Assembly (NCBI GenBank): GCA_000004985.1
Contig: GG738898.1
DNA length: 64,000 nt
Direction: 5' to 3' (one strand)
From: Naegleria gruberi
Lineage: Eukaryota
Positions within the stretch are counted from its first letter, which is position 1. Each line of letters opens with the position of its first letter. Made by a program: the position numbers and the translations under genes. Under the pieces are notes generated by a model. That model saw nothing but the letters and a program-made list of their open reading frames with translations. It made no database searches and was not told where the DNA came from. Positions 3,034-35,359 of this stretch are shown here, piece by piece.

Positions 3034-4955
3034 ATGTCAGTAAAAGGATTCTCACCATCATTATCATCGATCACTAACACATTGATGATCATTTTGATGA
3101 TGATTAATTTATTATCAATGGTTCATTCATCATTGTGTGCATCATCATCATCATGGACACAAAAACATGGTGATTTCTACATGTCCAATTCCATTCCTGA
3201 TTTTCCACTTTCCCATTCATCATGGATTAGTATGAATTCTCCGATGCTTACCAAGATGAATTTGAAACTTGATTCTACATCATTGATATTTGCAAATGCA
3301 CCATTGAGTGGTAAATTATTGATGGTTCTTGATGATGATAATCAACAATTGGTGATCGCAAGTATTAATTGTACTAGCGGAGTATTTAATATTGAAAGAA
3401 ATTTGACAAGTGTTTATCCTGGAACGAAGAGAGTTNNNNNNNNNNNNNNNNNNNNNNNNNNNNNNNNNNNNNNNNNNNNNNNNNNNNNNNNNNNNNNNNN
3501 NNNNNNNNNNNNNNNNNNNNNNNNNNNNNNNNNNNNNNNNNNNNNNNNNNNNNNNNNNNNNNNNNNNNNNNNNNNNNNNNNNNNNNNNNNNNNNNNNNNN
3601 NNNNNNNNNNNNNNNNNNNNNNNNNNNNNNNNNNNNNNNNNNNNNNNNNNNNNNNNNNNNNNNNNNNNNNNNNNNNNNNNNNNNNNNNNNNNNNNNNNNN
3701 NNNNNNNNNNNNNNNNNNNNNNNNNNNNNNNNNNNNNNNNNNNNNNNNNNNNNNNNNNNNNNNNNNNNNNNNNNNNNNNNNNNNNNNNNNNNNNNNNNNN
3801 NNNNNNNNNNNNNNNNNNNNNNNNNNNNNNNNNNNNNNNNNNNNNNNNNNNNNNNNNNNNNNNNNNNNNNNNNNNNNNNNNNNNNNNNNNNNNNNNNNNN
3901 NNNNNNNNNNNNNNNNNNNNNNNNNNNNNNNNNNNNNNNNNNNNNNNNNNNNNNNNNNNNNNNNNNNNNNNNNNNNNNNNNNNNNNNNNNNNNNNNNNNN
4001 NNNNNNNNNNNNNNNNNNNNNNNNNNNNNNNNNNNNNNNNNNNNNNNNNNNNNNNNNNNNNNNNNNNNNNNNNNNNNNNNNNNNNNNNNNNNNNNNNNNN
4101 NNNNNNNNNNNNNNNNNNNNNNNNNNNNNNNNNNNNNNNNNNNNNNNNNNNNNNNNNNNNNNNNNNNNNNNNNNNNNNNNNNNNNNNNNNNNNNNNNNNN
4201 NNNNNNNNNNNNNNNNNNNNNNNNNNNNNNNNNNNNNNNNNNNNNNNNNNNNNNNNNNNNNNNNNNNNNNNNNNNNNNNNNNNNNNNNNNNNNNNNNNNN
4301 NNNNNNNNNNNNNNNNNNNNNNNNNNNNNNNNNNNNNNNNNNNNNNNNNNNNNNNNNNNNNNNNNNNNNNNNNNNNNNNNNNNNNNNNNNNNNNNNNNNN
4401 NNNNNNNNNNNNNNNNNNNNACTTTCCAATGATTGTAAGGTGGCTATTATTGATTTGGAAATGGAGACCATTATTGTGGATGGAAAGAGACAAGCCAATG
4501 TTAAAATTGATCGATCCCTAACGGAACAATCTGCAATTGTTACAGTAAGTTTATTTATTTATGCAATACTTAATGTTATGATGAAATTAAAGTATTACGG
4601 AGCTAAAGTTATTAAAATGTGTGATAAAACATTATCAAACACAGTCAATATCACAGATTTGATAAGAAATGAAAATTTAGGACATTTATCACTTGGCAAT
4701 TTTGAGCATTTTGTTTACAATGTTTTGGATGAAAAGGTTTACAGTGGAAAAAAAACTTTAACTGAGACATTTATTTGTAAAATTGAAAGTAATGGTAAAA
4801 TTGTTGGCAAAATTCAAAGACCCAAGTCAAATTTGATAGAAATTGAATTTCCATCAACTCCAAACTATAGACACAAAGCACTAGTGTTGGCACTTGCCTT
4901 ATTTTGTTTTGCAACATCAGGTGGTGGTGGTGTCGTCTTCCCAATGATCATTTAA
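3034..4955 (+). CDS. secreted, probably GPI-anchored Ser-rich protein, interrupted by gap 3436-4420
   Basis: The N-terminus is hydrophobic and signal-like (…LMIILMMINLLSMVHSSLCASSSS). The C-terminus ends …LVLALALFCFATSGGGGVVFPMII*, which looks like a GPI signal. A candidate in-frame 48-nt intron GTAAGT…AAG lies at 4545-4592. Confidence 0.5.
3436..4420. other. assembly gap (run of N)
   Basis: Literal N characters. Confidence 1.
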
Positions 4956-7311: not shown

Positions 7312-9264
7312 ATGTCATCTGCTGAAGTATTTGATGGAGCCATTGGTATTGATTTGGGAACAACTTATTCATGTGTTGGTGTCTATATGGGAGATAATGT
7401 AGAAATCATTCCGAATGATCAAGGTAATAGAACAACACCTTCCTATGTTGCATTCACTGATGAAGAACGTTTAATTGGTGATGCTGCCAAGAATCAAGTT
7501 GCAATGAATCCACACAATACAGTATTTGATGCTAAACGTTTAATTGGTAGAAAGTTTTCCGATTCAACAGTTCAAGATGATATGAAACATTGGCCATTCA
7601 AGGTCATTACAAAGAGTGATGAGAAACCATACATTCAAGTTGAATACAAAGGAGAATCACATGTTTTCACACCAGAACAAATCTCATCCATGGTCTTGAC
7701 TAAAATGAAGGATATTTCAGAACAATATTTGGGTAAACAAGTCAAGAAGGCAGTCATTACAGTTCCTGCCTATTTCAACGACTCACAAAGACAAGCAACC
7801 AAGGATGCTGGTGCAATTGCTGGTTTGGAAGTTTTGAGAATTATCAATGAACCAACAGCTGCTGCCATTGCTTATGGTTTAAACAAGAAGGGTGAAAGAA
7901 ATGTTTTGATTTTCGATTTGGGTGGTGGTACTTTTGATGTTTCAATTTTGAATATTGAGGATGGTGTTTTTGAAGTGAAAGCCACTGCTGGTGATACTCA
8001 CTTGGGAGGAGAAGATTTTGATAACTTGATGGTTCAATTCTGCTGTCAAGAATTTAAGAGAAAGTACAAGAAGGATATTCAAGAAAATCCAAGAGCATTA
8101 AGAAGATTGAGAACTGCCTGTGAAAGAGCCAAGAGAAATTTATCATCAGCTGCCAATGCTTCAATTAATGTTGATTCAATTATGGACGGAATTGATTTGG
8201 ATATTTCAATGACTCGTGCTAAATTTGAACAATTGAATATGGACTTGTTTAAGAAGTGTTTCGAACCAGTCAAGAAGGTTTTACAAGATTCAGGATTGGA
8301 TAAGGCACAAATTGATGATGTTGTTCTTGTTGGTGGTTCAACTCGTATTCCAAAAGTTCAAGAAATGCTCAGAGAATTCTTCAATGGAAAAGAATTGTGC
8401 AGATCAATTAATCCAGATGAAGCTGTAGCTTATGGTGCTGCAGTTCAAGGCGGTGTTTTAACTGGTAAGGAAACCAAAGTCTTATTAATCGATGTTACTC
8501 CACTTTCATTGGGTATAGAAACAGCTGGTGGTGTCATGACCAAATTGATTGAAAGAAATTCAACCATTCCATGTAAGAAATCTGAAATCTTCTCAACCTA
8601 TGCTGATAATCAAACAGCAGTCACTATTCAAGTCTTTGAAGGAGAAAGAACCTTGACAAAGGATAATCACTTGTTGGGAAGATTTAACTTGGAAGGTATT
8701 CCACCAGCACCAAGAGGTGTTCCAAAGATTGAAGTCACATTTGAAATTGATTCTAATGGTATTATGAAAGTTTCTGCCAAGGATACTTCATCTGGTAAGA
8801 CACAAAACATTACCATCAAGAATGAACAAGGACGTTTGAGTAAGGAAGAAATTGAAGAAATGGTCAAGAAGGCCAAGGAAATGGAACAATTTGATAAGGA
8901 ATTGAAAGAAAAGATTGATGCCAAGAATCAATTAGAGGCCTACGCCTATCAAATGAAATCCACTGCTGATGATCCAAACTTGTCTGGTAAATTATCAGAT
9001 GCTGATAAGAATACCATCAAGAAGACATGTGAGGAAGTTATTAATTGGTTAGATAATAATTCTACCTATTCAAAGGATGATATTGAAAAGAGAAGAAAAG
9101 AATTGGAAGGTAAATGTGCACCAATTATTAGCAAGTTGTATCAACAAGGAGCTGGTCAACCAGAATTTACACCAAATGGTGCAAACTTTACCTCAGATAA
9201 TACTTCCAGTAATTCAAGCAACACAACATCAAAGCCAAAGTTTGAAGATGTTGATGTCGATTAA
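7312..9264 (+). CDS. cytosolic Hsp70/Hsc70 chaperone
   Basis: Intron-less 650-aa ORF with [22 protein letters not shown] and [14 protein letters not shown] signatures. The C-terminus is …FEDVDVD rather than EEVD. Confidence 0.95.
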
Positions 9265-9344: not shown

Positions 9345-9968
9345 NNNNNNNNNNNNNNNNNNNNNNNNNNNNNNNNNNNNNNNNNNNNNNNNNNNNNNNN
9401 NNNNNNNNNNNNNNNNNNNNNNNNNNNNNNNNNNNNNNNNNNNNNNNNNNNNNNNNNNNNNNNNNNNNNNNNNNNNNNNNNNNNNNNNNNNNNNNNNNNN
9501 NNNNNNNNNNNNNNNNNNNNNNNNNNNNNNNNNNNNNNNNNNNNNNNNNNNNNNNNNNNNNNNNNNNNNNNNNNNNNNNNNNNNNNNNNNNNNNNNNNNN
9601 NNNNNNNNNNNNNNNNNNNNNNNNNNNNNNNNNNNNNNNNNNNNNNNNNNNNNNNNNNNNNNNNNNNNNNNNNNNNNNNNNNNNNNNNNNNNNNNNNNNN
9701 NNNNNNNNNNNNNNNNNNNNNNNNNNNNNNNNNNNNNNNNNNNNNNNNNNNNNNNNNNNNNNNNNNNNNNNNNNNNNNNNNNNNNNNNNNNNNNNNNNNN
9801 NNNNNNNNNNNNNNNNNNNNNNNNNNNNNNNNNNNNNNNNNNNNNNNNNNNNNNNNNNNNNNNNNNNNNNNNNNNNNNNNNNNNNNNNNNNNNNNNNNNN
9901 NNNNNNNNNNNNNNNNNNNNNNNNNNNNNNNNNNNNNNNNNNNNNNNNNNNNNNNNNNNNNNNNNNNN
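9345..9968. other. assembly gap (run of N)
   Basis: Literal N characters. Confidence 1.
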
Positions 9969-10043
9969 ACATTTATCGTGTTCTGATTTCTAGAAAAAAC
10001 GAATGATATTGATTTACTGAAAGATTAATATTATTATCCAATA

Positions 10044-11296
10044 TTGTGATTTCGGAAAACCCTTTTCCTTTTTTTTTTGAATTTTTTCAAGGTTTGTTTG
10101 AATTGCTTCGGATTGGTTTGAATTGGATTGAATTGCATCAGATTTGAAAAAAATTTGGCTGCCCGAATTAACTGATAGAGTGTATGTGAATGGAAAAGGT
10201 TTGGCAGACGAAGAGATTCAATTAATTAAATATAAATATGACAATTATCTGCTAATAATATACCTCCACACAAAATTGCTCGTCTTATTCGAGTGGAAAC
10301 CTTGTTTTCTCTTCCGACGATTAGAAAATATATGGAAAACCAAGAAAAATCAAAACCAGGTCGTCCAAGGTATTCTGGAAAATCTACACAATTGAATATG
10401 TTGGCCTTTATTAAAACTTGTTTTGAAATTATGCCCACTCTTTATCTGCAAGAGTTGCAACAATCTATTAAGGAAATATTTGGAAATGAGATATCATTAT
10501 CTCAATTATCGGATGTCAAAACCAAGATTTTGAATATCACTAACAAGAAAGTGGAATTATTAAGTAATTATCGGAAAAAACCTCATATTCAACAACATAG
10601 AAAACTTTACAGAGAATTGGTTCTTGGTTTCGAAATTGATGATTTGTTTTTCATTGACGAGTCCACTGTTACATACACCGATCTAGCAAGAAGGAGAGGT
10701 CACTCATTAAAAGGAACACCTGCAAGGAACTCATCTCATCATGTTTCGAATAAGAGATTTTCAATTATTGCTTGCATCAATAGATTGGTTGGAGTAGTTT
10801 ATTGTGAAGTCATTGATACAACCGAAAAAGGAGTGGATCAAATTATCTTTTCAAACTTCATGGATACTTTGAAACATTTAATTCCAAAAGACAAAGTGTG
10901 TGTTATGGACAATAGTTCAGTTCATAATAAGGAAACTTTGGTTGATTCCATGAAGGAAGCTGGAATACATGTTCTATTTCAAAGTAGATATTCACCAGAT
11001 TACACTCTAATTGAATTTTGTTTCTCGTGGTTGAAAAGTGAACTGAAAAGAGAAGAATATATAACGTACCCATTGGCTTTCTTGGTGAAACAAACCTTTG
11101 ATAGTATGCCAGTGGAAATTGTTCGAAAATATGTTGGACACGCCCAACAGAATTGGAAATCCAATAGATTGTAAGTTAAAATAAAGTTTGTTTTATTTGA
11201 TTGAATTGGTTTGAATTGGTTTGTATTGGATTTTGTTGGAAAAAAAATTGCAAAAAAATTCAAAAAAAAAAGGAAAAGGGTTTTCCGAAATCACAA
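10044..11296 (+). mobile_element. Tc1/mariner-family DNA transposon, ~1.25 kb, with ~50-bp TIRs and TA target-site duplication
   Basis: Left end TTGTGATTTCGGAAAACCCTTTTCC(T)10GAATTTTTT is the exact reverse complement of the right end AAAAAATTC(A)10GGAAAAGGGTTTTCCGAAATCACAA. Both ends are flanked by TA (10042-43 and 11297-98). Subterminal TTGAATTGG direct repeats are present. An internal DD34E transposase ORF is present. Confidence 0.8.
10293..11174 (+). CDS. Tc1-like DD34E transposase, catalytic core ORF with N-terminal region out of frame
   Basis: The core reads DESTVTYTD…VMDNSS…(34 aa)…YSPDYTLIEFCFSWLK, i.e. DD34E. The paired/HTH-like N-terminus (LPELTDRVYVNGKGLADEEIQLIKY…) lies in another frame at 10144-10240 and has no ATG, so the gene is likely decayed. 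Confidence 0.7.
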   Translation: METLFSLPTIRKYMENQEKSKPGRPRYSGKSTQLNMLAFIKTCFEIMPTLYLQELQQSIKEIFGNEISLSQLSDVKTKILNITNKKVELLSNYRKKPHIQQHRKLYRELVLGFEIDDLFFIDESTVTYTDLARRRGHSLKGTPARNSSHHVSNKRFSIIACINRLVGVVYCEVIDTTEKGVDQIIFSNFMDTLKHLIPKDKVCVMDNSSVHNKETLVDSMKEAGIHVLFQSRYSPDYTLIEFCFSWLKSELKREEYITYPLAFLVKQTFDSMPVEIVRKYVGHAQQNWKSNRL

Positions 11297-11456
11297 TAGC
11301 CTTCATAATTTTAATATCAAAATTCAATCCGAGAAGAATAATTTTAATATTACTGACTCTTCTAATTGGGAAATATCAGGAAATACTTTTAATGTTGGCG
11401 CTTATACTACTACTGCATTCAATTTATATTACTTATTAGTAAATAATCAAGAATTG

Positions 11457-26218: not shown

Positions 26219-26433
26219 AGATTTCTTAATGCAATCATTCTTCCTATTTTATGTTTTTCGATTGGTACTTTATAATAGTGAGTAATCTCAATCAAAGTTG
26301 CGAACAATTATTTCAACATTTTCTAGAGTTCCAAGTTCCCAAAGAGTGAAATTTGAATATGCATTTTCAAAAATTACAATAAAACACAATGCACTTCCAG
26401 AAATGATGAACTTTTGAAACAACACAAAAAAAA

Positions 26434-33464: not shown

Positions 33465-34619
33465 AACCATAAAGAAATTCAAATTAATTGTTATCTTGAT
33501 CATTCCGATAATTTCCACCTCCTTCTCTTACTCATTCAATTTGATATTGAATTCTAAACATGTCCATTATCCAACAGTGTACATTTTCCAATTAGGAAAA
33601 AAATGGTTGTTATTTTAATCGTGGTATAAATAATTTTTTAACTGACAAACAAAACCATCATATAGGAAAAGTCTAGACTAACAATCTAAGGATTGTCTAC
33701 TTGATTGTTGTTGCTATTAAGAGTTAATTCTTGGCCTCTAATAATTCTAATAACTGTAACTGCAGCAAAGGAAGTACAAAAAATTCTCGCAACAAGAATT
33801 TTGGAGACAAAAAAAATTGTGGCTCAGATGGCTCCTCTAAAAGGAACCGGAAAACGTGTTCTTTGCTTCAACAACTTTAAAAAAACTACACAACAACCAC
33901 TACCATCATCATGAATACATCACCACTTCCTCGTACTCCTTGCTCTCCAAGTGATCAATCCCATCATCACTCGAATTGTTCACAAATTTCTAGGACAAAC
34001 ACTTCAATTTTATCTTCCTATCCACACAAAATCTACACAATACAGATTGTGCCTTCCATAAAACCAGAAAAATCAGAGAATAACTCAGAGTCTCTGAATG
34101 GACCTGGATTTTACTTCAAGAAGGTTTGTCCAACGAAATCAACACAAAAGACAATAAGAAATAATTTGAGGGAGAGTATCCAAAGATCAACAGACAAGAT
34201 TACAAAGAAAAGAAAAATGTAGCTACTGTTGTACCCTAAATGTATTTTGAAATTGAAATAAATAAAAGTCATGTATTTTAAATTATTATTGAATAATATT
34301 TATTATGTCAGCAATACTTTCCTCGTTCTGTCAGTCAGATTTCTTCTTGCACTTGGGGTTTGTTTCAACAGCCCAATGAAGCAATGCTTGGTCTAAGAAT
34401 GAAACGATAGTTAAATATCCTTATTTGCCCTCTCCAATTACGACATAATCAGTGTAACTTTTGCCTTTGATAGGGATCAATCAGTTACTCCAATGCAATG
34501 AAAAGGATCTCATCTTCATTCATCAATTGAATCATAATGTTGTTAATGTTAATCAAATCCAGGGTAGAAAAGTTGCTCACATCAGACATATCAAGGACTT
34601 AATTTCATCTTGAATGTAT

Positions 34620-34691
34620 TCCCGTGTAGTCCAATGGCTAGGATACCTGGCTTTCACCCAGGAGGTCCGGGTTCAATTCCCGGCATGGGAG
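34620..34691 (+). tRNA. tRNA-Glu (anticodon UUC)
   Basis: TCCCGTGTAGTCCAATGGCTAGGATACCTGGCTTTCACCCAGGAGGTCCGGGTTCAATTCCCGGCATGGGAG. The cloverleaf is canonical: anticodon loop CTTTCAC, T-arm CCGGG/TTCAATT/CCCGG, 7-bp acceptor stem with one G:U pair. Confidence 0.85.
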
Positions 34692-35359
34692 AATAATTTT
34701 GATTTTGGGTTCGAATTCGTGTTCAACAATGAAGAATCGAATAATAGCATTACCCGATCGAAAGTACCAGGCTTGGATTGGTAGTATTTTTGCTTCATTG
34801 TCAACTTATAATAAAATGTGCATAAGGAAAGAGGAGTATGATGAAACTGGACCAAATATCGTTCATAGAAAGTGAATCGAATAAATATCACAGAAATGCT
34901 TCATTAATGATTGACGCCTTATCTTCCAACAACATATTTCCATCAACTACTGTAGACCAAAGATAATTTTATTTATGGAAGACTTCCAATATTCACTTCA
35001 GATCTTTCTTCAAGAAATTTCGAGCAAATTGATTTAAAGTGTTGTAAGAGATATATTGATTATTTCGAAAGTTTAAAACAGAACAGTATTGGACGAAAAA
35101 GATGAAAGAAAAATAATTTTCAATGTCAAAGCAAAAGAATGTAAGGTAGAACCATTTACAATATACACATACCGCATTCACCAACCTTGGTTAGTTTTGG
35201 AGCTTATTCGAGCTTTGAAGGATTTTTGAATGTTGAATTTGAATGGAAATTGTTGGGTGAATTCTCTGGTTTAACAATGTTAGTGATTGATTACGATCGG
35301 AACACATTAGGTGCTGTCCATGGTACGAAATTATTGCATCACGTTTTAAAAGAAATTTT

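What the first reader, a model, noticed from the sequence alone, without database searches (positions are those of the whole stretch)
10044..11296. Structurally complete Tc1/mariner element with 50-bp perfect TIRs but a decayed transposase N-terminus
The two ends are exact reverse complements over about 48 bp, including a (T)10 run. They are flanked by a TA duplication. The internal ORF has an intact DD34E triad. The paired/HTH DNA-binding region is in a different frame and lacks an ATG, which suggests a recently inactivated or non-autonomous copy. The insertion sits between the Hsp70 3' region and the BTB-ARL 3' end. The downstream host sequence continues as an open Asn-rich ORF, so a host gene may have been disrupted.
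Basis: seen in the sequence. Interest (0 to 1): 0.5.

Follow-up and report, generated by a model that had tools for sequence, protein, structure and literature searches.

The report
Defective IS630/Tc1-type transposon copy in Naegleria
This is one broken copy of an ordinary cut-and-paste DNA transposon (IS630/Tc1/mariner superfamily) in the amoeboflagellate Naegleria gruberi: its ends are intact but it cannot make its own transposase, and it lacks a second gene of unknown function that all its examined relatives carry.

Summary
Window 10044-11296 is a 1,253-bp element with perfect 44-nt terminal inverted repeats (46 nt counting the flanking TA, not 48-50) and a TA duplication. Its ORF has a Pfam DDE_3 domain and a DD34E triad.

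The host is Naegleria gruberi. The ORF is the unannotated "predicted protein" NAEGRDRAFT_72532.

An intact 341-aa homologue (64% identical, from a Logan contig) confirms the N-terminal damage. Its residues 10-34 align to one frame and 36-341 to another, which implies a single 1-nt deficit at about 10252-10253. No ATG exists in the upstream frame.

By profile and fold the protein belongs to the IS630/Tc1/mariner superfamily, with a paired-box-like N-terminus and a Mos1-like catalytic core. It fails the specific tests I ran for Tc1 proper, mariner and bacterial IS630.

All eight distinct relatives with enough flanking DNA have a second ORF next to the transposase; inverted repeats enclose both genes in the six where both ends are on the contig. 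The Naegleria copy has none, so it looks like an internal-deletion derivative.

I found no other copy in the window or among annotated N. gruberi proteins. The whole genome could not be searched. Disruption of a host gene is not supported.

This is a new member of a known kind and of modest interest.

The parts
10042..10043 (.). Left copy of the TA target-site duplication
   Evidence: TA immediately outside the left TIR.
10044..10087 (+). Left terminal inverted repeat, 44 nt (TTGTGATTTCGGAAAACCC...T10...GAATTTTTT)
   Evidence: 100% complementary to 11253-11296; the 25-mer is unique to the two ends, with 0 expected by chance.
10089..10157 (+). Left subterminal ~70-bp block, including four 10-bp GTTTGAATTG tandem units at 10096-10135. 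It is a direct (not inverted) repeat of 11183-11250.
   Evidence: 78% over 69 nt, same strand. (TRF, period 10). (direct z=14, inverted z=-0.9); aligns with the left subterminal region of relative L001 (score 45 against shuffles of 23 +/- 3.7).
10177..10251 (+). Remnant of the transposase N-terminus (first HTH of the paired-like domain) in frame 2, with no ATG upstream in that frame
   Evidence: P0002 residues 10-34 align here (40% identical, 72% positive); no ATG in frame 2 after the stop at 10129.
10252..10253 (+). Frameshift site: 2 nt where the intact homologue has one codon, i.e. a 1-nt deficit
   Evidence: the frame +2 segment ends at element position 208 and the frame +1 segment starts at 211. 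P0002 residue 35 is left unmatched.
10254..11174 (+). Remaining transposase reading frame: 306 codons plus stop. Covers the end of HTH1, HTH2 and the DDE_3 catalytic domain. D1 is at 10656-10658, D2 at 10908-10910 and E at 11013-11015 (DD34E). The annotated 280-aa model NAEGRDRAFT_72532 starts at ATG 10332.
11183..11250 (+). Right subterminal block, including about three GTTTGAATTG-type units at 11201-11229, in the same orientation as the left block
11253..11296 (-). Right terminal inverted repeat, 44 nt
11297..11298 (.). Right copy of the TA target-site duplication

Best explanation
Window 10044-11296 is one copy of a cut-and-paste DNA transposon of the IS630/Tc1/mariner (ITm) superfamily in the Naegleria gruberi genome.

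How elements of this kind work (established knowledge of the superfamily, not tested here): a roughly 340-aa transposase binds the terminal inverted repeats through an N-terminal paired-like double helix-turn-helix. Its RNase-H-fold DDE centre excises the element and inserts it at a TA dinucleotide, which is duplicated.

This copy keeps everything needed in cis: two identical 44-nt TIRs and the TA duplication. It cannot supply the protein in trans, for three reasons:
1. No start codon remains in the frame that encodes the first HTH.
2. A 1-nt deficit at about 10252-10253 separates that HTH from the rest of the protein.
3. It lacks the second ORF present in all eight examined relatives.

The most economical history (inferred) is one internal deletion. 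It would have removed ORF2, the intergenic promoter region and the first few transposase codons including the ATG. A separate 1-nt deletion then followed.

The rest of the ORF is open for 306 codons and has all invariant family residues. It shows no excess of lineage-specific substitutions. The inactivation is therefore recent compared with the divergence from its nearest relative.

The copy could move only if a full-length element supplied transposase. None was seen.
For: Shown:
- Perfect 44-nt TIRs plus TA.
- DDE_3 and DD34E in invariant family columns.
- The host and gene identity: N. gruberi, XP_002672310.1 / NAEGRDRAFT_72532.
- The frame break and the missing ATG, located against the intact homologue P0002.
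- Superfamily membership. The family profile hits Mos1 (7e-11), SETMAR and Sleeping Beauty (9e-8) catalytic domains. Its N-terminal positions 5-121 hit Pax5/8/6/Prd paired boxes (1e-6 to 6e-4). The AlphaFold model of P0002 (pLDDT 87) matches full-length Mos1 best (E=2e-11).
- Purifying selection over most of the divergence: dN=0.28, dS about 2.1 and saturated.
- Lineage-specific losses of family-consensus residues: 7 in this copy against 5 in P0002.
- Relatives are two-gene elements. In L002/L003/L004, 33-40-nt TIRs enclose ORF2 and the transposase, with TA flanks at three different sites and 99.7-100% identical copies. L001 contig ends are a 30-nt perfect inverted repeat around both genes. 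L010, L158 and L159 have a convergent ORF inside the inverted repeats. L012/L013 have a Fanzor1 homologue inside 90-nt inverted repeats.
- The ORF2 of L001 and of L002 are homologous (Smith-Waterman score 143 against shuffles of 64 +/- 10, maximum 98, z=7.7). Their transposases are only 32% identical, so ORF2 predates the split from the Naegleria lineage.
- The left subterminal DNA of the Naegleria element aligns to the left end of L001, and transposase homology resumes at about codon 5-6.
Against: - The whole N. gruberi assembly could not be searched. Copy number, a master copy and an empty site are therefore untested.
- Both coding lesions lie within about 110-285 bp of a contig edge (gap 9345-9968), where Sanger assemblies can be thin.
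- The deletion breakpoints rest on short AT-rich alignments between elements that are only 67% identical in DNA.
- Perfect TIRs reflect selection along the mobile lineage as well as insertion age, so 'recent' is qualitative.
- A significant ~70-bp direct repeat just inside both TIRs is not explained by the model.
Confidence: 0.8

Rival explanations
1. The copy is actually autonomous. The missing ATG and the frameshift would be base-calling or assembly errors near the contig end, or the element would be a natural single-gene form.
For: Both lesions lie within 110-285 bp of the gap edge at 9968. The other 306 codons are intact with all invariant residues.
Against: The left TIR lies even closer to the gap (76-119 bp) and matches the right TIR 44/44, so base calls there are good. 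There are two independent lesions. The expected ATG position is an A-run that would need more than one change. All eight relatives examined carry a second ORF.
Confidence: 0.08
2. The 280-aa ORF (NAEGRDRAFT_72532: HTH2 plus catalytic domain) is expressed from ATG 10332 and is functional. It could act as a truncated regulator or poison subunit of transposition, or as an incipiently domesticated host protein.
For: It has an open 280-codon frame with an intact DD34E and was annotated by JGI. dN is much smaller than dS against the nearest homologue.
Against: It is still flanked by perfect TIRs and a TSD. No orthologue in another named Naegleria species or any other named organism appeared in two searches of 5.8 billion proteins. 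Two highly conserved residues just before the catalytic E are replaced, NPIE to TLIE. The low dN/dS is expected from the time the gene spent as an active transposase. No expression data were available.
Confidence: 0.07
3. The insertion knocked out a host gene, whose remaining 3' part is the open frame 11298-11801.
For: An ORF of at least 167 codons is unlikely by chance at 33.5% GC. My estimate from base composition is about 0.02 expected in the window. Its codon usage is gene-like in that frame only (+0.135 bits per codon against -0.35 to -0.53 in the other frames).
Against: It has no homologue and no N. gruberi gene model. In the reconstructed empty site the frame closes 12 codons upstream of the TA and contains no ATG. 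The stretch before the first ATG (11457) has a codon score of about 0. The data fit equally well a small unannotated gene starting at 11457, with the element about 160 bp upstream of it.
Confidence: 0.15

Closest known systems
Tc1 family (DD34E): Tc1/Tc3 of C. elegans, Sleeping Beauty
   Same: TA target duplication, TIRs, a transposase of about 340 aa, a paired-like bipartite HTH followed by a DDE_3 catalytic domain, and D-34-E spacing.
   Different: No match to the Tc1-specific Pfam HTH_Tnp_Tc3_2. Sleeping Beauty is reached only by the family profile (9e-8; E=0.49 with two sequences). The termini read TTGTGA..., not CAGT (the CAGT terminus of Tc1 is from my own knowledge). Relatives carry a second ORF.
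Bacterial IS630 family (NCBIfam NF033545)
   Same: It is the best-scoring named family. All 18 clade members hit it (best 8.7e-37). The named distant relatives are 'IS630 family transposase' entries from bacterial MAGs. Protein size and triad are similar.
   Different: P0002 scores 90.5 bits, below the 100-bit cut-off. Identity is only 21-25%. No relative was found in 185,579 bacterial and archaeal genomes with the clade's conserved peptides. The host is a eukaryote, the TIRs are 44 nt, and relatives carry an ORF2 with a basic N-terminus that I read as NLS-like.
Mos1 mariner transposase (PDB 3HOS, 4U7B)
   Same: Best structural match over the full length (Foldseek E=2e-11, about 350 aligned columns) and best PDB sequence-profile match (7e-11).
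   Different: The third catalytic residue is E, not D. There is no Pfam Transposase_1 match. Identity is about 15%.
Fanzor1-carrying Mariner/Tc1-type elements of protists and giant viruses (Bao & Jurka 2013 and Saito et al. 2023, both cited from my own knowledge)
   Same: Transposase relatives in giant-virus MAG contigs (31-32% identical over residues 115-307) sit divergently next to a 701-aa Fanzor1 homologue (E=3e-27 to SpuFz1, 8GKH). Both lie inside 90-nt inverted repeats.
   Different: The Naegleria element has no second gene. The ORF2 of its closer relatives (334-414 aa, K/E-rich) shows no Fanzor, Pfam or PDB similarity.
Multi-ORF ITm elements of ciliates: TBE1, Tec1/Tec2, Paramecium Sardine/Thon (from my own knowledge)
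   Same: An ITm-type DDE transposase accompanied by extra element-encoded ORFs.
   Different: In ciliates the extra ORFs are a tyrosine recombinase, zinc-finger or kinase-like proteins. The ORF2 seen here has no recognisable domain. No direct comparison was run.

Membership tests
IS630/Tc1/mariner (ITm) superfamily | Terminal inverted repeats flanked by a duplicated TA | tested here: met
   44-nt perfect TIRs with TA on both sides.
IS630/Tc1/mariner (ITm) superfamily | DDE/D catalytic triad in an RNase-H-like domain | tested here: met
   DDE_3 at E=3e-19. D/D/E fall in invariant columns with D-34-E spacing. The profile hits Mos1, SETMAR and SB. The model of P0002 matches Mos1.
IS630/Tc1/mariner (ITm) superfamily | N-terminal paired-like bipartite helix-turn-helix | tested here: met
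   Family profile positions 5-121 hit Pax5/8/6/Prd paired boxes. The model shows two three-helix bundles. In the window copy itself the first HTH is cut off by the frameshift.
IS630/Tc1/mariner (ITm) superfamily | Mobility: several copies at different sites | not testable with these tools
   The N. gruberi assembly is not in any searchable collection. There is no second copy in the 64-kb window or among annotated N. gruberi proteins. Mobility is shown only for the relative in L002/L003/L004, which has three insertion sites.
Tc1 family in the strict sense | Tc1/Tc3-type second HTH (Pfam PF01498, HTH_Tnp_Tc3_2) | tested here: not met
   No such hit in any of 18 clade members at E<=0.01.
Tc1 family in the strict sense | Phylogenetic placement among reference Tc1 transposases | not tested
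Only PDB and HMM comparisons were run.
mariner family | DD34D triad and Pfam Transposase_1 | tested here: not met
   The third residue is E (GAA at 11013-11015). There is no Transposase_1 hit.
Bacterial IS630 family (NCBIfam NF033545 equivalog) | Score at or above the curated cut-off of 100 bits | tested here: not met
   P0002 scores 90.5 bits.
Autonomous transposon | Complete transposase ORF with a start codon | tested here: not met
   No ATG in frame 2, and a 1-nt deficit at 10252-10253.
Two-gene elements of this clade (transposase plus ORF2) | A second ORF of about 300-700 aa inside the TIRs | tested here: not met
   Only about 150 bp and 122 bp of non-coding DNA flank the transposase ORF. 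tblastn of six partner ORFs (ORF2 of L001, L002, L005, L007 and L010, and the L012 Fanzor1 homologue) finds nothing in the window.

The most novel reading that the evidence does not exclude
The Naegleria copy may be a deletion derivative of a previously undescribed two-gene branch of IS630/Tc1-like transposons. This branch is found in AT-rich protist and giant-virus DNA. Its transposase travels with a fast-evolving ORF2 of about 300-400 aa that has a basic N-terminus (MAKRK...), which I read as NLS-like, and no known domain. In some lineages a Fanzor takes that place. ORF2 would be an element-encoded accessory factor needed for, or regulating, transposition. Its loss, rather than the frameshift alone, would be what makes short copies like this one non-autonomous.
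Probability: 0.4. Interest if true: 0.5.

Novelty: new member of a known kind. Interest (0 to 1): 0.3.

Why it matters
For the window itself it matters little. It re-labels an N. gruberi 'predicted protein' (NAEGRDRAFT_72532) as the remnant of a transposase inside a defective transposon. It also warns that the locus sits next to an assembly gap.

The wider value lies in the relatives. This sparsely populated clade has only 21 cluster representatives scoring at or below 1e-30 among 1.8 billion, almost all unnamed metagenomic sequences. It consistently pairs an IS630/Tc1-type transposase with a second gene.

If ORF2 is a real accessory factor, the clade would add to the few multi-gene ITm elements known. 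It would also link protist elements to the Fanzor-carrying elements of giant viruses. The intact homologue plus the 44-nt Naegleria TIRs would be a ready test system.

Tried and rejected
Searches that found nothing:
- Exact-protein look-ups of the Hsp70, the 280-aa model and a 293-aa version in the contig index. No N. gruberi contig other than the window could be read.
- The JGI metagenome scan gave only relatives at 43% identity or less in the best segment (28-32% for the best-scoring loci), with no Naegleria-like copies. The first attempt with the 18-sequence alignment failed for lack of a conserved stretch.
- The bacterial and archaeal genome scan gave no relative.
- The exact TIR probe found nothing in viral contigs.
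- Literature searches for the gene identifiers, the SRA run, Naegleria plus IS630/Tc1, and two-ORF Tc1/mariner elements gave nothing relevant.

Ideas considered and rejected:
- Programmed -1 frameshifting. There is no X_XXY_YYZ slippery site at 10240-10260, and there is still no ATG (read).
- A short intron bridging the frames. The homologue aligns continuously on both sides of the break.
- ORF2 being a degenerate Fanzor. There is no PDB or Pfam similarity.
- An ORF2 remnant elsewhere in the window.
- The IR/DR (Sleeping Beauty-type) reading of the subterminal repeats. They are direct, not inverted.

Homology among the more distant ORF2s (L007, L010, L158, L159) could not be shown (z below 4).

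Full report
**1. The observation**

The region was read directly. An inverted-repeat search returns arms 10042-10087 and 11253-11298, 46 nt and 100% complementary. That is a TA on each side of a 1,253-bp element (10044-11296) with perfect 44-nt TIRs, which include the T10 run.

A 25-nt TIR probe allowing 3 mismatches matches only these two ends, with 0 expected in 100 shuffles. An 18-mer that includes the TA adds only one 3-mismatch site, at 26364, which is probably chance: 0.31 matches were expected in shuffles. BLASTN and TBLASTN of the element against the window find no second copy.

The window is 33.5% GC and has seven N-runs. One of them (9345-9968) ends 75 bp from the left TIR.

**2. Coding content**

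The long frame 10254-11171 hits Pfam DDE_3 (E=3e-19). The triad is D at 10656-10658, D at 10908-10910 and E at 11013-11015. There are 83 and 34 residues between them, so the triad is DD34E. All three lie in invariant columns of an 18-member family alignment.

**3. Host and identity**

A search of 5.8 billion proteins returned two hits.
- A 280-aa "predicted protein" of Naegleria gruberi at 100% identity. It is XP_002672310.1 / EFC39566.1 / NAEGRDRAFT_72532, on a 310-kb scaffold. The adjacent Hsp70 is EFC39565.1.
- P0002, an intact 341-aa protein, 64% identical, from a 2,678-bp Logan contig of run SRR26782601 (L001).

**4. The N-terminal defect is real**

tblastn of P0002 against the element aligns residues 36-341 without a gap to frame +1 (element positions 211-1128). 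Residues 10-34 align to frame +2 (positions 134-208). Two nucleotides (window 10252-10253) are left for residue 35, so there is a single 1-nt deficit.

Frame 2 has no ATG between its last stop (10129) and the break. The position aligned with P0002 Met1 falls in an A-run, not a point-mutated ATG.

The JGI model starts at ATG 10332. In the AlphaFold model of P0002 (pLDDT 87), a β-hairpin spans residues 3-13, HTH1 helices span 20-62, HTH2 spans 82-127 and the catalytic domain spans 166-336. The JGI product would therefore lack the hairpin and HTH1.

Sequencing error is a concern so close to a gap. However, the TIR lies even closer to the gap and matches its partner 44/44, and there are two separate lesions. 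I rate the error explanation at about 0.08.

**5. How decayed is the rest?**

Not measurably.
- Against L001 the frame has dN=0.28 and dS of about 2.1, which is saturated.
- At positions where at least 50% of 16 outgroup sequences agree, the Naegleria copy alone deviates at 7 and P0002 alone at 5.
- Two of the seven are the conserved N-P before the catalytic E (NPIE to TLIE).

Inactivation is therefore recent compared with the 64%-identity divergence.

**6. Family placement**

An exhaustive profile search of 1.84 billion cluster representatives gave 2,969 hits at E<=1e-3 but only 21 at E<=1e-30.

- Pfam sees only DDE_3 in all 18 members, with sporadic generic HTH families. It sees no Tc1-type PF01498 and no mariner Transposase_1.
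- NCBIfam IS630 (NF033545) hits all 18, but P0002 scores 90.5 bits against a cut-off of 100.
- A profile search with names shows that the next named relatives are bacterial "IS630 family transposase" entries at 21-25% identity. It shows no other N. gruberi protein.
- Against PDB sequences the profile hits Mos1 (7e-11), SETMAR (2e-8) and Sleeping Beauty (9e-8). With its N-terminal positions 5-121 it hits the paired boxes of Pax5, Pax8, Pax6 and Prd (1e-6 to 6e-4).
- Foldseek of the model ranks full-length Mos1 first (E=2e-11).

The element is thus a secure member of the ITm superfamily, on the IS630/Tc1 (DDE_3, DD34E) side. It fails the specific tests I could run for Tc1 proper, mariner and bacterial IS630. 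A recent survey argues that IS630 and Tc1 cannot be cleanly separated and that many protist and giant-virus members remain unrecognised (PMC11544213).

**7. The relatives are two-gene elements**

This was not part of the finding, but it changes its reading.

- **L001** (64% relative). The contig ends (1-30 and 2649-2678) are a perfect inverted repeat. They enclose the transposase (1555-2580, +) and a divergent 414-aa ORF (172-1416, -).
- **L002/L003/L004** (P0006, 32% identical). TIRs of 33-40 nt (about 90% complementary) enclose a divergent 334-337-aa ORF and the transposase. The element ends TAGCTG...CAGCTA are followed by TA. The three contigs have three different right flanks, and the copies are 99.7-100% identical. 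This is a recently mobile two-gene unit.
- **L005/L006 and L007/L008.** Both have a divergent upstream ORF cut by the contig end.
- **N-terminal motif.** Four of these ORF2s begin M-(A/T/P)-K-(P)-R-K.
- **L010, L158 and L159.** Each has a 299-365-aa ORF convergent with the transposase and inside inverted repeats of 29-55 nt.
- **Giant-virus MAG contigs L012/L013.** The divergent partner is a 701-aa Fanzor1 homologue (E=3e-27 to SpuFz1, PDB 8GKH), inside 90-nt inverted repeats.

The ORF2 of L001 and of L002 are significantly similar (score 143 against shuffles of 64 +/- 10, maximum 98, z=7.7). The more distant ORF2s are not. None has a Pfam or PDB relative.

The transposase of L002 is an outgroup to the Naegleria/L001 pair, and its ORF2 is homologous to that of L001. 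Parsimony therefore says the ancestor of the Naegleria element had ORF2.

**8. The deletion model (inference)**

The Naegleria left subterminal DNA (element positions 33-114) aligns with L001 46-126. The score is 45 against shuffles of 23 +/- 3.7 (maximum 37). This is better than its match to the L001 intergenic region. Protein-level homology to the transposase resumes a few codons after the expected ATG.

One deletion removing ORF2, the intergenic region and the first codons would explain both the small size (1,253 bp against more than 2.2 kb) and the missing start codon. The alignments are short and AT-rich, so the breakpoints are approximate.

**9. Unexplained**

Just inside each TIR lies a ~70-bp block: 10089-10157 and 11183-11250. 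The two blocks are 78% identical in direct orientation (z=14; inverted z=-0.9). They contain 10-bp GTTTGAATTG tandem units. All three exact GTTTGAATTG copies in the window are here, all on the + strand.

L001 has no such direct repeat, although a TTGAAT core recurs in its non-coding parts. These blocks could be accessory protein-binding sites or filler DNA from the repair event. Neither was tested.

**10. Surroundings and the host-gene claim**

The element lies between the 3' end of HSP70 (stop at 9264, +) and the 3' end of a BTB+Arf gene (12140-14108, -).

The frame that leaves the right TIR stays open to 11801.
- It has gene-like codon usage in that frame only (+0.135 bits per codon), but about 0 before its first ATG at 11457.
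- It has no homologue and no N. gruberi gene model.
- In the reconstructed empty site the frame closes 12 codons upstream of the TA, with no ATG.

A small unannotated gene starting at 11457, with the element about 160 bp upstream of it, fits at least as well as a disrupted gene.

**11. What could not be done**

The N. gruberi assembly is not in any searchable DNA collection, and exact-protein look-ups found no other contig. Metagenome, viral and prokaryotic scans found no close copies.

**12. Verdict**

This is a real, TA-flanked, TIR-perfect but coding-defective and ORF2-less copy of an IS630/Tc1-type DD34E transposon. It is a new member of a known kind and of modest interest (0.3). The most novel reading still open is that its clade is a two-gene branch of ITm elements with an unknown accessory protein.

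Noticed in passing
L001 172-1416(-); L002 97-1101(-); L003 930-1934(-); L004 97-1110(-); L005 1-234(-); L007 1-828(-); L010 1449-2381(-); L158 2047-2946(-); L159 7045-8142(-): Every relative of the transposase with enough flank has a second ORF of about 300-414 aa with no known domain, and in those where both ends are on the contig it lies inside the inverted repeats. It is either divergent (starting MAKRK-like) or convergent. The ORF2 of L001 and of L002 are homologous (z=7.7).
   Followed up: partly
L012 667-2772(-), L013 1560-3665(-): In giant-virus MAG contigs, a 308-aa transposase relative sits divergently next to a 701-aa Fanzor1 homologue (E=3e-27 to SpuFz1, PDB 8GKH). In L012, 90-nt inverted repeats (479-568 / 3883-3972) enclose both.
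   Followed up: partly
window 10089-10157 and 11183-11250: A ~70-bp block with 10-bp GTTTGAATTG tandem units is repeated in direct, not inverted, orientation just inside both TIRs (78% identical, z=14). It is not seen in the nearest relative. Its function is unknown.
   Followed up: partly
window 11298-11801 (first ATG at 11457): Unannotated open frame with gene-like codon usage. It has no homologue in 5.8 billion proteins and no N. gruberi gene model. It may be a small orphan gene immediately downstream of the insertion.
   Followed up: partly
window 11007-11012: The conserved N-P immediately before the catalytic Glu (NPIE in 81-88% of the clade) is T-L in the Naegleria copy. This may be an additional catalytic impairment.
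   Followed up: no
window 9345-9968: A 624-nt assembly gap ends 75 bp from the left TIR, so the upstream flank and any empty-site reconstruction are incomplete. Six other N-runs occur in the window.
   Followed up: no
window 14659-15552(-) and 15606-16430(-): Two adjacent same-strand ORFs (297 and 274 aa) share long similar stretches (for example ...LLGNQPDEVVKEILNY... and ...LLGSQPDEIIEQILNF...; ...FEIEFGELGMVRF... in both). They look like a tandem gene duplication.
   Followed up: no
window 9235-9264: The Hsp70 (NAEGRDRAFT_44741) ends in ...EDVDVD rather than the EEVD that, from my own knowledge, ends canonical cytosolic Hsp70s.
   Followed up: no
window 16486-16556(-) and 34619-34692(+): Two tRNA genes were found: tRNA-Ala(TGC) and tRNA-Glu(TTC). 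Neither is adjacent to the element.
   Followed up: no
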